The notes beneath the pieces are model-generated. The model ran no database searches and had not been told where the DNA came from. It saw only the letters and a program-made list of their open reading frames with translations. A stretch of 61,766 bases of DNA, counting the filler, from Basidioascus undulatus (lineage: Eukaryota), in assembly GCA_000826855.1 (NCBI GenBank). It is 11 parts of 11 records of this genome, joined end to end, with 100 filler letters (N's around TTAATTAATTAA, not from the genome) between each part and the next. Parts side by side here need not be neighbours in the genome. Positions count along the whole stretch, not along the records: positions 43,341 to 46,952 come from JTLS01002365.1; 10 more parts are not named here. One strand, 5' to 3'. The translations under genes were made by a program, and so were the position numbers. Below are positions 15,079-47,052 of the stretch, piece after piece (within the stretch, counting starts at the first letter, position 1; each line of letters begins with the position of its first letter).

Positions 15079-16815
15079 TCAGAGCGCAAACGCGGCCAGC
15101 GCCAGGCCGACCGCACCGAGGGTGACGAGTGCCGACGCGCCGCCGAACGCGCCCATCGCGCCGTTGTTGCCGCCGCTGCCCTGGGTAGACTCGGACGCGC
15201 TGCCGCTGCCGGTCTTGGAGGCCGCGGTGGAGGAGGACGAGGTGGACGCGGCGGACTGCGCGGCGCTCAGGACGGGGTTGGTGATCTGCGTCCAGGCGGG
15301 GGTCGTCGCGTTGCGGTCGAGATAGTAGAGCTCGCCGGAGGAAGTGAGCTGGACAAGCGCCCGGTCGGAGGACGTGTAGGTGGCGTCGGCATCCTTGACC
15401 GTCGGGCCGTCGAAGGTCGTCGTTGCGTTCGTCTTGGAGATGGGGCGGAAAAGGGGTGAGATGGGTGGGAAGGAAGGCGAGAAAAGCCACTCACGTAGAC
15501 GTCGATGGAATAGGCGTGGTCGCCGGAGTCGGGGACATACCAAAACTCGGTTTGCCACTGGCAGTGCGACTACGTTAGCTCGGAAATCCAGATATCATGG
15601 CAGAGGAAGCGAGGCGCACGGTGTTGTCGTCCTTCCAGATCGAAGCAGTCTTGCCAGCCTCTTGCTGCCAGTCGCCATACTTCTGCGCCTCGGGCTGCCA
15701 GTACGAGACTGCGCATGATTATAAGTATTTATTAGCAGATATTGAATAATGAACAATAATTGTATTATGCCGAGGCTCACAGTGGATCACGAAGATGTTG
15801 GCTTCACCAGCGGCAGCGCCCGGGACGTCAATGAAGTCTGCCAGTCGCAAATATGCCGTCAGACGAACTGCGAATTCAAGATGGAATTAGGCAAGAGTGG
15901 ACACACGGATGTGGTTGGACGCGAGCGCGATGGTCGGGTTGGAGTAGCCCTCCGTGTTGAAGGACGCGGAGCTGACGGCGCTCCATGTCCGCTGGTCCGC
16001 CGGGACGAGGTCAGAGCCCATGTTCATCATGAACAGGTTCGCGCCGTCAAGTCCGTAGAAGACGTTAGTGTCTAGCGTTGCAGAGGCCAGACAAGAACAT
16101 GTTCAGCTAAGGTGCAAGGCGGCAGGGAGAAGAAGATAGAACGCACCGTGGTCAAGGATGACCTTGATGGAGTTCAGGTCCGGCGTGGTCGTGCCGGTGG
16201 TGTTAGACGCGATGGAGGTCCACGCGCCTGAGGCGAAGTCGAGGATGTAGACGTCGGAGGGCTTAGACGAGTCGGCGTTGATGCACTGCAGCAAGCCGCC
16301 CCGGGGAGATGGATCTGCGTTAGCAGCTGCCCTTCCTGCTTTCGGAGGAAGAGATGGAAGATGGGAACATACGCACATAGGCGCCGTTCTTGTACTGGTA
16401 CAGCCAGCATTGGACATTGTCGGTGTCGAACGATCTGCGTTTGTTGAACACCCACCAGCCCCCTCCAGTGAGCCAACTTCCACCTACTCAGCAGTGCAAC
16501 CTGATACTCACGGCCGCCCGTCCTCAGAGAGCTCCTTGAAAGCCATCCCTGAAGCGTACCACAGCAACAAAGACCATCAGGAACCGAATTCCTCCTCTCG
16601 ATCTCGACTGCCCCGAGCGCGCGAAGACCGAGGCCGGTTCGGAAGGAGATGAACGCACCGCTCGACCAGCTGTTCATCGCCCCCGCATTGTAGTCCTTGC
16701 CATTGAGGCCCAGGACGTAGAGATTCCAGTTGATGTCGAACACGACCTGGGGTACTGCCCGCGCAAGTGCGGGGACCAGCGCGAGCGCGGCAGCGGAGAC
16801 GGACGCGACGCGCAT
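15079..16815 (-). CDS. Secreted, probably GPI-anchored uncharacterised protein (multi-exon)
   Basis: Signal peptide MRVASVSAAALALVPALARA. Exons encode FDINWNLYVLG, DTNVFYG, IALASNHIHFIDVP and IFVIH. Ser/Thr-rich stalk and hydrophobic C-terminus. Confidence 0.8.
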
Positions 16816-17199
16816 CGGAGAAAGGGGAGATGGGTGTAGCGAGTGTGGGTGGGTCGGGATGTCAGAGAATGGAAAACGAAAAGAATCAAGCAGCCTGAGA
16901 TGAGCTGGGCTGGTCTTGCTGCTGCTGTGTCTGGGAGGAAAGTAGGGAGGAGGACGAAATGAAAGGGGGAGATCAAAGGGGCAGGCGCAACCGAGCCTGC
17001 CTGCAGGGGCAGGTGCCGCTCTGGGTATTTCGGCGACGCGATCGCGGTCCAGACAGGCGTCAAAGCGCGACTTCTAATTTTTGGCACTCGTGCCCTCCGT
17101 CCCTCAACGTTCCTCCCGCAGTCGCCCATGCATTATTATACGCCTGACTGCGACAGCAGCATCGATGCCAGCACGATGGTGGCAATGCAGGGCGTCGGG

Positions 17200-24540: not shown

Positions 24541-24640
24541 NNNNNNNNNNNNNNNNNNNNNNNNNNNNNNNNNNNNNNNNNNNNTTAATTAATTAANNNN
24601 NNNNNNNNNNNNNNNNNNNNNNNNNNNNNNNNNNNNNNNN
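24541..24640. other. Artificial contig linker N44-TTAATTAATTAA-N44. Also at 28291, 32041, 35789, 39516, 43241, 46953, 50662, 54366 and 58067.
   Basis: The same 100-nt spacer, with stops in all six frames, occurs ten times. Confidence 0.99.
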
Positions 24641-28190: not shown

Positions 28191-28408
28191 AGCGGGAGGA
28201 TGGGGAAGAGGGGAAAAGGGGAAAGGGAGGGGGGAGGATAAGGGGGAGCTGGATAGGGAGTTGGAAGAGTATATGCGGGAGGGGAGAAGANNNNNNNNNN
28301 NNNNNNNNNNNNNNNNNNNNNNNNNNNNNNNNNNTTAATTAATTAANNNNNNNNNNNNNNNNNNNNNNNNNNNNNNNNNNNNNNNNNNNNACAGCATCGC
28401 ACAGCCTG

Positions 28409-43240: not shown

Positions 43241-43353
43241 NNNNNNNNNNNNNNNNNNNNNNNNNNNNNNNNNNNNNNNNNNNNTTAATTAATTAANNNN
43301 NNNNNNNNNNNNNNNNNNNNNNNNNNNNNNNNNNNNNNNNCCGTTCCTGTCCC

Positions 43354-46305
43354 CTACTCCCACTCCCCCTTCCACCCCCCCCTAAAATCATGGCCCACCA
43401 TAGCCTCGGGGTCGTTCCTCCCCCGGGCTCCAAAGTTCCCCACCCCGGGTGACAGCCCCGTGACGGGGAGGACGGTGACGTCCCCGATTTGGAGGGGGTG
43501 CTCGATGTTGCGGAGGGAGGGCCACGAGAAGGACGAGGACGGGGAGGAGAGGGCGATGAGATAGCTGTGGGTTGTGAAGGGGGTGAGCTCTCTTCGACGA
43601 CAGGCAAGAAAACGAGAGAAAGGGGAAAAGAAGGGAAGGGGAAGGAGGAGGGAAGGGGAATGAGAAGGAAGGAATGAGGGAGGGAGGAGGAAGGGAAGGA
43701 GGCAGGGAGGAAGGGAAGAGGAGAGGGGAACGGGGGACCCACGACAGCAAAGCATCCGTCCACACCCCCGGCCCCGTCCAGTCCATAACCCTACAGCACC
43801 CTCCCCTCCTCTCATCCCACGGCTCCACCCCGCTCAACCTCTCCGCTTCCTCTATCCTCCCCTCCCCCCGTAACCGCTCGATCTCCTCCGCCCGCGCGCG
43901 CTCCCAGGCTTCTGCTTCGCGCGTGGCGAGCACCACCCGGCGGATCGCGTCGAGCAGGATCGGGTGGCTGGGCGAGGAGAGCAACGTCCATTGCACGACT
44001 TGGACGGGGCGGGGCCAATACTGTTGGAGAGAAGGGCGAAGGTATGGGGAGAGGGGGAAGGAGGGAGGGGAAGGGGGAAGCGAGGGTAGGGAGGAGACGG
44101 ACCTTGTTCCAATTGGGGTTGTCGCCGCTGTGGTGGAGGCGCAGAAGGTCAGCGATGAGAGGAAGCAGAAGAAATGAAGAGAGAAGGACGGAAGAAGGTG
44201 GTACAGAGGTAAGGAGGTAAGGAAGGAAAGAAGTAGGAGGGAAGAACGACCGAGGGAAGAAAAGGAAGAAGGATGGGAGGGAAGGAGGAACGAAGACGCA
44301 CACGTCCGCCTCGATGCCCACCACAACATTCACCCCGCTGCTCGGCTCGACGCCCTCCCGCGGCTTCGCATTCCGCCCCCACGCCTGGATGGGCTTGAGA
44401 CACTTTGTGTCCATGTCGCTGTACACGCCGCCGTGGGCGAACAGCACCAAGTATCTAAGGAAGTCCGCTTTCTGTCCCCGCATCTCCACCAGTGCCCGTC
44501 CCCCAATCAGCGAGGAAAGGATAAGAGGGGGGAGGACGAAGAGCAACGCACCAAAACAGATCTCCTCAACCTCTTATAAACGTCCCCCACCTCGCTCCCC
44601 CCATACACCTGCTCGACCCACCGTTCCGCCTCCGCATCATCCAAAAAAACATACTCCCAAGCAGGGTTCGCATCGCTCCAGCTGCGCATGTTTGAGTTTT
44701 CCCCCTTCGGACGGGAAGCGTCCGTCTGCCAGATGCGTTGTGGGAGCGGTTGGAGCGGGGCGGGGAGGGACGAGAGTGCGGCGTGGGACTGAAGGGAGGG
44801 CGGGAGGGAGGACACGTCGTGCGCGAAGAGCGTCAGGAGCCAGGAGAGCGCGAAGAAGGGCGTGGGGTACGCGCTGGTAGTCCCACATGCGTCAGCGAGT
44901 GGTTGCAGGGCGGGCGGAACCGTTAGATAGCGACGCACGACTCGATGAGACCCGCCAGGTCCGGATCGACTGCTCGCAGAATGCGCTGCATGACCCTGCG
45001 TTCTCCCCCACCTACCTCAGCGCCCAGTCTCGTAAAGGTGGGTGAAAGCCAAGAACCCTAAAACGCAAGCGCACCTCAACCACCCCAGCACCGGCTCCAG
45101 CCCCTCGCCCATCCCGTCCCGACACCAGTGCAAGCTCACGCGCTCCGCAGCAGCGTGCATCCGCTCCGCGTCGACCTCGAGCTCGAGGAGGAGGACAGAG
45201 AGGATGTCGTGGTAACCCTGTGTCGGGGAACAGCCTTAGTACGCGTTCTGGGGGTGAGGAGAGCGGGATGAGTGGGCACCTGGAAGTACTGTAGTGATGG
45301 ACGCGCGCGCAGGACGCCCACTATCAAGTCGTACAGCGCCGCTTTAAGGCGGTCTCGTTGTCGCTTGTCCACGCCTTCGTTCCCACACACCTCGCATCAG
45401 CCTTCTCTCTCCGATAATCACACTCGAGTGGACAAGAAGAGCTCACCTTCCGGCCAGTTCACGAAACTCCGATCCACGTCCAGCCTGACCTGCCCCTCGT
45501 CCTTATGCCTTTTCACCCTTGCCCTCGCCTCCCCCTCCTCCTTCTGCTCAGTACCATCCGCCTGGTCATTCTCGGCTTCCTCCTCCTCCTGCTCCTCCTT
45601 CTCGAAGAAGTAGCTCGACCACCGGATCCACTCGCGCGTGGGGGCGATGCGCGGGTCGGGCGAGCGCGGGCGCGAACGCGGGATGGAGTGCCAGGACGCG
45701 GAGAGCGGCGTGGGGTCGGGGGTGCTGGGGCTGGGGAGGGAGAGGAGGTGGGACCTGGAAAAATGTGAAACAAAAATCTTGAGCTCAAGCCTCGAAGAGA
45801 AGGAAAGGAGAGGTTAGGCGTATGTGAAGACGCACCATGCTCGAGTCCTCATCCGCCTCGACCCGAATCCGCACTCCTCGCACGCCAGCCTGCTCAGCCG
45901 CGGCCTATCGTCCCGCGCAAGGGCATCGAGGATCTCCCTCTCCCTCTCGCTCCACTCCTCACCCTCATCCTCATCCTCCTCCGCCTCCTCTCCCTCTCCC
46001 CCGCCATCCTCGCGCATCACCGCCTCCCGCACGAGCGGCACGTCCGGGCGCCCGTTCAGATCCGAGTCGGACAGGACGTGCTTACCCTCCAGCGCGGGGA
46101 GGTCTACGCTGGAGATTGCGGTGCGCGGGGAGGAAGACGCGGAGGAGGCGGAGGTGGTGGATGGGAGGGAGACGAGCGAGTCGATCGAGGTCGATAGGTC
46201 CGTGCTCTGGTCTGTGGGCGTTGGCAATGATGCTGCGGCGACGGGTGCGCCGTCTGAAGGCGCTGGCGACGCCGTGCGCGGCGTTGTGCTGCGCGAGTCG
46301 GCCAT
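43354..46305 (-). CDS. Gyp8/TBC1D20-like RabGAP N-portion fused in frame to an Och1-like GT32 glycosyltransferase domain
   Basis: TBC part: DEGQVRLDVDRSF, LQYFQGYHDI, FALSWLLTLFAHDV. GT32 part: PQRIWQT, KADFLRYLVLFAHGGVYSDMD, VVGIEAD, QWT..HPIL, DWTGPGVWTDA, HDFRGGWK. The junction lies inside exon 44552-44873. Confidence 0.8.
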
Positions 46306-47052
46306 CAGCGGAACGTTCGGTTGAGGGTCGAGAGTTAAGAGCAGGATGCCAAGTTGGGCGCCATTCCAGCCAGCGGAGGAAGCCCGGTGCGATGCACGTG
46401 AAAACCCATTCAGCTTTTCGCACGCACGCTGCAGACTCCCTTTCCTTTCTCCTTTCTTCCGCTGTGCTTCCGTCAGGCCGGCAAACGAGGGTGAGAAAGC
46501 TGCTGCACAGACATTCGAGTGCCAAGGTGTATGAACGCAGAGCGGTGCTTACGTTGAGCCAGACAGCTCGTGACGTTCCCTGCGGGGTGCCTCGCGGGCG
46601 CGACATTCGGCCAGTGAAATGAGATCAAGAGGTTCTGGGAATCAGATGAATTCCCCTGTGTATGGAATTCTACTCCATATCAGTGAAATCCAGGAATTCA
46701 GTGACAGCGGGGGTTGCATGCTCAGGTTGAGGGACAGCAAAATCACCTTCAAGTTGGGTGCAATCTCTAGCACCGTTATTCCCAGAACAACACGAGCAAT
46801 TTTCCATTCTTCTATTGATCTCACTTCAGTCTTCCAGGTATAAAGTCTTTGGAAGTGCCGCCGTCACCCCAAGGAGAAAAGATAACTCTTCCCAGGGCTC
46901 CTGCCAGCGTCTCCAAGTTCAGTTGCGTTGCCGCTAAAGATCCACATCCTGGNNNNNNNNNNNNNNNNNNNNNNNNNNNNNNNNNNNNNNNNNNNNTTAA
47001 TTAATTAANNNNNNNNNNNNNNNNNNNNNNNNNNNNNNNNNNNNNNNNNNNN

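What the first reader, a model, noticed from the sequence alone, without database searches (positions are those of the whole stretch)
43354..46305. RabGAP (Gyp8/TBC1D20) and GT32 mannosyltransferase-like domain fused within one exon
Seen: exon 44873-44552 reads SAYPTPFFALSWLLTLFAHDVSSLP-PSLQSHAALSSLPAPLQPLPQRIWQT with no stop or usable intron. The TBC Arg finger (DVDR), Gln finger (YFQG) and GT32 DxD (DMD) are intact. Known: TBC GAPs are cytosolic, while Och1-like GT32s are type II Golgi-lumen enzymes. Here the TBC C-terminal helices and tail and the GT32 signal anchor are both missing. Inference: if real, this would be a cytosolic glycosyltransferase attached to a Rab-binding module. However, the junction (44791-44812) is CCTCCCTCCCGCCCTCCCT, the kind of low-complexity tract at which this assembly often breaks. 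A misjoin or microhomology deletion between two genes is at least as likely.
Basis: partly seen in the sequence, partly recalled or inferred. Interest (0 to 1): 0.7.

Follow-up and report, generated by a model that had tools for sequence, protein, structure and literature searches.

The report
Two genes misjoined by the assembler
The apparent fusion of a Rab-GTPase regulator with a Golgi sugar-transferase is almost certainly an assembly error that glued two separate, ordinary fungal genes together at a short shared stretch of 14 bases.

Summary
The window is 11 contigs joined by N/TTAATTAATTAA linkers. The finding sits on one 3,612-base contig (43341-46952). A clean 10-exon, 692-aa minus-strand model has an N-terminal half that is TBC1D20/Gyp8-like (48-53% identity to five agaricomycete TBC proteins). 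Its C-terminal half is Och1-like GT32 (PF04488; 42% identity to a Ramaria GT32 protein). The two are joined in frame inside exon 6.

Public data do not support the join. In one search, contigs of two DNA runs from two studies, and intron-less (RNA-like) contigs of a third run, each follow one gene into a shared 14-base tract (44800-44813). They then continue into sequence unlike the window, for 98 to 3,917 bases. No listed contig bridges the tract. TBC homology stops exactly at the tract. The GT32 transcript's own upstream letters encode the stem motif seen in GT32 homologues. No fused relative was found: 0 of 44 exon-6 hits carry a TBC domain.

Verdict: a chimeric contig, not a real feature. 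Both genes are ordinary, separately transcribed, and truncated here only by the misjoin.

The parts
44800..46305 (-). 5' part of a TBC1D20/Gyp8-like RabGAP gene. It comprises exons 46305-45836, 45754-45447, 45374-45280, 45217-45075 and 44995-44939, plus the first 74 bases of the exon starting at 44873. It encodes model residues 1-382 and is cut off by the misjoin.
   Evidence: Gene model. Introns 1-5 are skipped by X3 contigs. Exon 4 hits 5 agaricomycete proteins that carry PF00566, the best named TBC1 domain family member 20, at E 1.3e-6 and 62% identity. BLASTP of the spliced model gives 48-53% identity at E 7e-44 to 1e-40, and all five alignments end at residue 382. Arg- and Gln-finger motifs align. 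X1 record 2 and X2 record 11 cover 46900-44800 and then continue for 1204 and 98 bases unlike the window.
44800..44813 (-). The 14-base tract GTCCTCCCTCCCGC shared by both genes; this is the point of the misjoin.
   Evidence: In one search the GT32-side contigs (X1 record 1, X3 record 18) match up to 44813, and the TBC-side contigs (X1 record 2, X2 record 11) match down to 44800. The overlap is 14 bases, below the 30 that neighbouring Logan contigs share if Logan used k=31 (recalled). The X2 and X3 depths in bin 44793-44913 (14.9 and 19.6) are reproduced exactly by these non-bridging pieces alone. The core CCTCCCTCCC occurs 6 times in the window against 0.45 expected.
43354..44813 (-). 3' part of an Och1-like GT32 glycosyltransferase gene. 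It comprises the rest of the exon down to 44552, then exons 44471-44302, 44127-44103, 44020-43743 and 43564-43354 (stop codon included). Its own 5' part is absent from the window.
   Evidence: PF04488 on exon 7 at E 1.6e-11, 45.1 bits against a cut-off of 23. BLASTP of the model to P0041 gives 42% identity over 347 aa at E 2e-78, and to P0008 42% at E 3e-69. Their sources name them 'glycosyltransferase family 32 protein [Ramaria rubella]' and 'OCH1 [Phaffia rhodozyma]'. Introns 6-9 are skipped by X3 contigs. X1 record 1 (12229 bases) continues 3917 bases beyond 44813 unlike the window, and X3 record 18 continues 659 bases.
46306..46323 (-). At least 18 bases of 5' untranslated leader of the TBC transcript.
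   Evidence: X3 record 19 starts at 46323, upstream of the ATG at 46305.
46871..46952 (-). Fragment of large-subunit rRNA sequence at the contig's other end (a high-copy repeat where the contig stops).
   Evidence: RF02543 at 34.7 bits, E 1.9e-7, model positions 1624-1715, below the gathering score of 50. Word depth is 16,475-16,995 in X1 against about 42 for the gene, and the bin sum is 138,533 in X3.

Best explanation
The contig 43341-46952 is a chimera made during assembly. It joins the 5' two-fifths of a TBC1D20/Gyp8-like RabGAP gene to the 3' four-fifths of an Och1-like GT32 glycosyltransferase gene. The join lies at a 14-base CT-rich tract (44800-44813) that both genes happen to contain in the same reading frame, encoding SSLP.

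In the organism the two are separate, ordinary, separately transcribed genes. The RabGAP goes on to the rest of its TBC domain and, by analogy with its homologues, a C-terminal hydrophobic anchor. The transferase has its own upstream exon sequence and, by analogy, an N-terminal signal anchor and stem.

Shown: the non-bridging contigs, the point where each homology ends, and the splice pattern. Inferred: what the unseen continuations encode, and which assembly step made the join.
For: 1., DNA run X1, which may be the assembly's own source. Both pass the tract without stopping. Contigs of one de Bruijn graph do not repeat each other's words, so the continuations are other sequence.

2., DNA run X2, from a different study (2014). 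Record 11 covers 46900-44800 preceded by 98 unlike bases. Record 10 ends at 44798, and position 44799 is uncovered. The bin depth of 14.9 equals what records 10 and 11 alone give.

3. One search, run X3. Its contigs skip all nine introns, so I take it to be cDNA, although the record says 'DNA?'. Record 18 (GT32 exons) has 659 bases beyond 44813, and their first 30 letters are printed as a loose end unlike the window. By hand they translate, in the GT32 frame, to YLRTLRSFAA followed by SSLPPSLQSH. This fits the Y-x3-L-x2-F stretch that GT32 homologues have at that place (YRISLHSF in P0041, YYGSLRNF in P0008, YKAELEHF in P0028, YKTELEQF in P0044). Record 19 (1,705 bases) carries the TBC exons. 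The bin depth of 19.6 is reproduced only if record 19 stops matching at 44800.

4. All 5 TBC homologue alignments end at model residue 382, the last codon inside the tract. The homologues then continue with LIQHVFDY(L/I)L..RPPI..VYL, which the window lacks.

5. No fused relative. An HMMER search of 1.84 billion representatives with the junction exon gave 44 hits (best E 1.5e-8). Their best stretches start at query residue 10 or later, and 40 of the 44 at residue 21 or later. 0 of 44 carry PF00566 and 19 of 44 carry PF04488. The 5 TBC homologues list PF00566 only.

6. The tract's core is a common low-complexity word here, found 6 times against 0.45 expected. The assembly is highly fragmented, with ten contigs of about 3.6 kb in the window.
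Against: Contigs show presence, not absence. Raw reads were not available, and table 8 lists only part of the pieces (109 not shown).

In X1 the depth of bin 44793-44913 is 55.4, while records 1 and 2 alone would give about 47.9. The excess is unexplained. It is confined to that bin, so I think it comes from short low-complexity matches, but a short low-depth bridging contig cannot be strictly excluded.

It is not certain which run, if any, the window's assembly was made from, so a strain-specific rearrangement is not formally excluded.

An overlap of only 14 bases is unusually short for a standard assembler's join, and I cannot name the step that made it.

The join keeps the frame, and every exon and intron signal is intact.
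Confidence: 0.93

Rival explanations
1. A real gene fusion in the strain or haplotype that was assembled. A microhomology-mediated deletion or translocation between the two genes would create a cytosolic, anchor-less RabGAP-GT32 hybrid that is absent or rare in runs X1-X3.
For: The frame is continuous and all splice signals are intact. A 14-base microhomology is the kind of tract at which such rearrangements occur (established knowledge). The source of the assembly is not known for certain. An unexplained depth excess of about 7.5 remains in X1 bin 44793-44913.
Against: No listed contig of 3 runs from 2 studies bridges the tract, and both intact continuations are present at single-copy depth (42-46 in X1, 15 in X2) without a break at the tract in X1. 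X2 shows no other-letter differences from the window where it covers it, yet lacks the join. RNA-like contigs show the two transcripts separately. The hybrid would lack half of the TBC domain, so it is unlikely to fold as a GAP. No fused relative was found.
Confidence: 0.04
2. A sub-form of the artefact rather than an exclusive rival, so its odds overlap those of the best explanation. The two genes are true neighbours on one chromosome, and a scaffolding or gap-closing step merged their contigs at a spurious short overlap, deleting the sequence between them.
For: Both genes lie on the same strand in the contig, in head-to-tail order. Merging adjacent contigs at short overlaps is a known behaviour of some scaffolders (recalled, not tested).
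Against: The 3,917 bases that X1 record 1 carries upstream of the GT32 part do not lie on any of the window's TBC part. If the genes are neighbours, they are therefore more than about 3.9 kb apart at that end. Nothing else here bears on linkage.
Confidence: 0.15
3. A chimeric RNA (trans-splicing or read-through) that entered the assembly as cDNA.
For: None beyond the in-frame join.
Against: The contig retains all nine introns, so it is genomic DNA and not cDNA. The RNA-like contigs of X3 do not carry the join.
Confidence: 0.005

Closest known systems
TBC1D20 / yeast Gyp8 (RabGAP-TBC, PF00566)
   Same: Model residues 217-382 are 48-53% identical to five agaricomycete proteins that carry PF00566, one of which its source names TBC1 domain family member 20. 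The Arg-finger (RLDVDRSF) and Gln-finger (YFQGYHDI) stretches align column for column.
   Different: In the window the domain stops at SLP, before the LIQHVFDYLL helices and the C-terminal hydrophobic segment that all 5 homologues have. I attribute this truncation to the misjoin, not to the gene. Assignment to Rab1/Ypt1 or Rab18 as substrate is recalled knowledge of the family, seen only in passages of PMC7025499, and is not tested here.
Och1-type alpha-1,6-mannosyltransferases, CAZy GT32 (PF04488 Gly_transf_sug)
   Same: PF04488 is found on exon 7. The model shows 42% identity over 347 aa to a protein named glycosyltransferase family 32 protein (Ramaria rubella) and 42% over 314 aa to OCH1 (Phaffia rhodozyma). 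The DxD motif (DMD) and the C-terminal H-x-F-x-G-x-W-K stretch align.
   Different: The window lacks the N-terminal anchor and most of the stem that homologues have. The real transcript has 659 more bases upstream. Golgi glycosyltransferases being type II membrane proteins with cytoplasmic tail, transmembrane segment, stem and catalytic domain comes from passages of PMC7530903. Donor and acceptor specificity are not tested.
Chimeric contigs at short low-complexity overlaps in fragmented short-read assemblies
   Same: Two unrelated loci are joined at a shared short CT-rich word, with independent contigs passing through the word into different sequence on each side.
   Different: The overlap is only 14 bases, shorter than the k-1 overlap of usual de Bruijn assemblers. 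The step responsible is unknown.

Membership tests
RabGAP-TBC (PF00566), TBC1D20/Gyp8 subfamily | Significant sequence similarity to TBC-domain proteins | tested here: met
   Exon 4 alone hits 5 proteins at E 1.3e-6 to 3.9e-2 in a database of 5.8 billion, and all 5 carry PF00566. The spliced model gives E 7e-44 to 1e-40. A Pfam scan exon by exon found no PF00566 among 8 exon pieces, and PDB phmmer on exons 2 and 4 gave no TBC hit; the pieces are too short for these tests.
RabGAP-TBC (PF00566), TBC1D20/Gyp8 subfamily | Catalytic Arg finger (IxxDxxR) and Gln finger (YxQ) | tested here: met
   RLDVDRSF and YFQGYHDI align with RLDTDRSF / SLDTSRSF and YFQGYHDI in all 5 homologues. The motif definitions are recalled.
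RabGAP-TBC (PF00566), TBC1D20/Gyp8 subfamily | Complete TBC domain and C-terminal hydrophobic anchor | tested here: not met
   Homology ends at residue 382. The homologues continue for about 275-490 residues, each with a hydrophobic segment near the C-terminus. The contigs show that the real gene goes on, so the failure belongs to the contig and not to the gene.
GT32 / Och1-like (PF04488) | Match to Gly_transf_sug above Pfam's cut-off, with the DxD motif | tested here: met
   45.1 bits against a cut-off of 23, E 1.6e-11. DMD sits in the DxD column.
GT32 / Och1-like (PF04488) | Type II topology: N-terminal signal anchor and stem | tested here: not met
   The model has no hydrophobic window of 1.6 or more, while 6 of 6 homologues examined have one within their first 70 residues. 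The real transcript extends 659 bases upstream. Its first ten codons fit the homologues' stem, and the rest was not visible to me.
GT32 / Och1-like (PF04488) | Alpha-1,6-mannosyltransferase activity | not testable with these tools
The name OCH1 on P0008 is the source's annotation.
Genuine TBC-GT32 fusion gene | Junction present in independent sequence data of the organism | tested here: not met
   None of the 3 runs (2 studies) has a listed contig bridging 44800-44813, and contigs of each gene diverge from the window there.
Genuine TBC-GT32 fusion gene | Same domain architecture in other genomes | tested here: not met
   0 of 44 hits to the junction exon carry PF00566. A word-based search for longer proteins found none at E 0.01 or better. 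The 5 TBC homologues list PF00566 only. This is not an exhaustive architecture search.

The most novel reading that the evidence does not exclude
The join is real in a minor haplotype or in the particular strain assembled. A microhomology-mediated rearrangement would then have produced an anchor-less hybrid with the N-terminal half of a TBC1D20-like RabGAP fused to a complete Och1-like catalytic domain, placing a normally lumenal GT32 fold in the cytosol.
Probability: 0.03. Interest if true: 0.55.

Novelty: not a real feature. Interest (0 to 1): 0.05.

Why it matters
As biology it does not matter: the two genes are ordinary fungal housekeeping genes of membrane traffic and glycosylation. It matters as a caution. 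This assembly contains in-frame, splice-clean chimeras at short CT-rich tracts, so any unusual domain architecture predicted from it needs read-level support before being believed. Automated annotation would otherwise propagate a false RabGAP-glycosyltransferase protein into databases.

Tried and rejected
- The whole genome is not held (error), so other contigs of the assembly could not be searched for the missing halves.
- The 30-letter loose end of the real GT32 transcript was sought on the window's other ten contigs with up to 3 mismatches and gave 0 matches.
- The search for homologous proteins with the junction exon (longer proteins) scored none of 470 candidates at E 0.01 or better.
- A Pfam scan exon by exon gave PF04488 only. 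The two other weak hits (RIIa at E 0.047, NOL10 at E 0.22) are below their cut-offs and I disregard them.
- PDB phmmer with exon 4 gave only antibody and lectin chance hits at E 0.55 or worse, and exon 2 gave none.
- No RNA holder is listed among the runs. I treat X3 as RNA-derived only because its contigs skip the introns.
- Two X1 joints (43560 to 45974, and 46000 to 46440) have sides of 20 and 23 letters in repetitive GAG/CTC-rich coding sequence. I take them for spurious low-complexity matches.
- The many loose ends at 45954-46000 likewise sit in the acidic-repeat coding stretch.
- An Rfam gathering-threshold scan of the whole window found nothing.
- Contig-against-contig BLAST found only chance matches of 19-28 bases.
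- No earlier notes of this scan exist for this genome.
- The literature search for TBC1D20, Gyp8 and transmembrane gave one unrelated preprint listing. I found no passage stating the TBC1D20 anchor topology, so that point rests on recall plus the hydropathy scan.
- I did not search the literature for a TBC-GT32 fusion as such, and I make no claim about what is in print.

Full report
**What the window is.** The 61,766-base window is not one molecule. It consists of 11 contigs, one of 24,540 bases and ten of 3,600-3,650 bases. They are joined by linkers of 44 N, TTAATTAATTAA and 44 N. The finding lies wholly on one contig, 43341-46952 (3,612 bases, G+C 0.62). No whole genome is held for this window.

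**Checking the observation.** I read the minus strand, listed stop-to-stop frames and built a gene model by coordinates. It has ten exons: 46305-45836, 45754-45447, 45374-45280, 45217-45075, 44995-44939, 44873-44552, 44471-44302, 44127-44103, 44020-43743 and 43564-43354.
- All introns are GT..AG, mostly with GTGCGT-type donors.
- The CDS is 2,079 bases and encodes 692 aa.
- All nine introns are confirmed by contigs of public run X3 that skip them. Eight appear as joints with CT..AC ends on the plus strand, and the ninth appears in record 16.

**What the two halves are.**
- *TBC half.* Pfam on single exons finds PF04488 (Gly_transf_sug) on exon 7 (E 1.6e-11, 45.1 bits, cut-off 23) and nothing for TBC; the TBC exons are too short on their own. 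Exon 4 (47 aa) retrieves five agaricomycete proteins. All five carry PF00566, and the best is named TBC1 domain family member 20 (62% identity, E 1.3e-6).
- *BLASTP of the spliced model, run in the script box.* The five TBC proteins match model residues 217/230/240 to 382 at 48-53% identity (E 7e-44 to 1e-40).
- *GT32 half.* GT32-type proteins match from about residue 357-401 to 688-692. P0041 gives 42% identity over 347 aa (E 2e-78), and P0008 gives 42% over 314 aa (E 3e-69). Their sources name them 'glycosyltransferase family 32 protein [Ramaria rubella]' and 'OCH1 [Phaffia rhodozyma]'.
- *Motifs.* The Arg-finger and Gln-finger stretches and the DxD motif align with the homologues.
- *What is missing.* After the column of SLP, all five TBC homologues continue with LIQHVFDY(L/I)L..RPPI..VYL, about 275-490 further residues and a C-terminal hydrophobic segment. 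All six GT32 homologues examined have an N-terminal hydrophobic segment and a stem before the IWQT column. The model has no hydrophobic segment at all.

The best hits suggest an agaricomycete-like basidiomycete, which is an inference.

**Is the join real?** This was the decisive test. The contig's words are held by three public runs:
- X1, DNA, 2025, possibly the assembly's own source.
- X2, DNA, 2014, from another study.
- X3, from the same sample as X1.

Only Logan contigs of these runs are available, not raw reads. Laid on the contig, they show the following.

*X1.* Record 1 (12,229 bases, depth 46.5) matches 43341-44813. A 102-base low-complexity stretch within that range was skipped by the tool. 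Record 1 has 3,917 more bases beyond 44813 that do not lie on the window. Record 2 (3,305 bases, depth 42.3) matches 46900-44800 and has 1,204 more bases beyond 44800 that do not lie on the window.

*X2.* Record 11 matches 46900-44800 and has 98 unlike bases beyond. Record 10 ends at 44798, and 44799 is uncovered.

*X3.* Record 18 carries the GT32 exons, spliced, up to 44813 and has 659 more bases upstream. Their first 30 letters are printed as a loose end and differ from the window. Record 19 (1,705 bases) carries the TBC exons from 46323 on.

*Depth.* The depths of bin 44793-44913 in X2 (14.9) and X3 (19.6) are reproduced exactly by these pieces alone:
- X2: 6 x 15.3 plus 114 x 15, divided by 121.
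- X3: 21 x 30.8 plus 74 x 23.3, divided by 121.

So in these two runs nothing else lies there, and X3 record 19 stops matching at 44800. In X1 the bin reads 55.4 against about 47.9 expected from records 1 and 2. The excess is confined to that bin, and I attribute it to short low-complexity matches.

*Conclusion from the contigs.* The two sets of contigs share only 44800-44813, GTCCTCCCTCCCGC on the minus strand. That is 14 bases. As I recall, Logan builds with k=31, so neighbouring contigs share 30 bases, and there is no path across the join in these graphs.

**Two independent cross-checks agree.**
1. The TBC homology ends at residue 382, the last full codon inside the tract, in all five alignments.
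2. Translated by hand in the GT32 frame, the 30 loose-end letters of the real GT32 transcript give YLRTLRSFAA, followed by the window's SSLPPSLQSHAALS. At that place the homologues have YRISLHSFLNAAFPSRLKSH (P0041), YYGSLRNF (P0008), YKAELEHF (P0028) and YKTELEQF (P0044). The real transcript thus continues the GT32 stem where the window switches to TBC.

Both genes read the tract as SSLP in the same frame, which is why the chimera stays open.

**Is the architecture known elsewhere?**
- HMMER of the junction exon against 1.84 billion representatives gave 44 hits, the best at E 1.5e-8. All of them lie on the GT32 side.
- Their best stretches start at query residue 10 or later, and 40 of the 44 start at residue 21 or later.
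- Of the 44, 0 carry PF00566 and 19 carry PF04488. Two are unrelated repeat proteins, matched through low complexity. The remaining 23 have no Pfam match at E 0.001.
- The word-based search for longer proteins found none.

This is not an exhaustive architecture search, but nothing supports a natural fusion.

**How the join arose.** I cannot say which assembly step made it, because a 14-base overlap is short for a standard assembler. The core CCTCCCTCCC is a frequent word here, with 6 occurrences against 0.45 expected in shuffles. In X2 the GT32 contig breaks at 44798, which suggests a local graph break (for example a heterozygous site) that an extension or merging step may have bridged wrongly. 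The two genes might be neighbours with the interval lost, but the 3,917 bases upstream of the GT32 part in X1 contain none of the window's TBC part.

**Verdict.** This is a chimeric contig and not a real feature (confidence 0.93). What is really there is two ordinary, expressed genes:
- A TBC1D20/Gyp8-like RabGAP. By family knowledge it is a GAP for ER/Golgi Rabs. Passages of PMC7025499 mention TBC1D20 with Rab18 and Rab1.
- An Och1-like GT32 transferase. Passages of PMC7530903 describe Golgi glycosyltransferases as type II membrane proteins and treat Och1p among them.

A real strain-specific fusion keeps about 3-4%.

Noticed in passing
window 24541-24640, 28291-28390 and eight more linkers: The window is a concatenation of 11 contigs ordered by falling length and joined by N44 + TTAATTAATTAA + N44. 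Neighbouring 'genes' across a linker are not neighbours in the genome.
   Followed up: yes
window 46871-46952 (-): The contig's other end is an 82-base fragment of large-subunit rRNA (RF02543, E 1.9e-7, model 1624-1715, below the gathering score). Word depth is about 400 times that of the gene. The unique contigs of X1 and X2 both run 30 bases into it (to 46900), so a junction between unique sequence and rRNA-like sequence at about 46870/46871 seems to be present in both data sets. It could be an inserted rDNA fragment or a short true identity; I did not resolve this.
   Followed up: partly
window 44062 and 44065 (intron 8): X1 and X3 read G and A where the window has A and G. X2's contigs break at 44061-44065. 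This looks like a polymorphic or heterozygous pair of sites in the CT-rich intron.
   Followed up: no
window 43993-44127: X3 record 17 runs unspliced through intron 8 (44021-44102), while another X3 contig skips it. This indicates intron retention, pre-mRNA or some DNA in that run.
   Followed up: no
window 45954-46000 (exon 1, acidic GAG-repeat coding stretch): Many contigs of X1-X3 have loose ends here, and bin depth rises to 240.8 in X1. The (E/D/G)-rich repeat is shared with many other loci and is another place where this assembly could misjoin.
   Followed up: no
window 43633-43734 and 44140-44300 (introns 9 and 7): The introns of both genes are long CT-rich low-complexity runs (TCC/CTT repeats), and the read tool skipped 43633-43734 as a repeat.
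   Followed up: no
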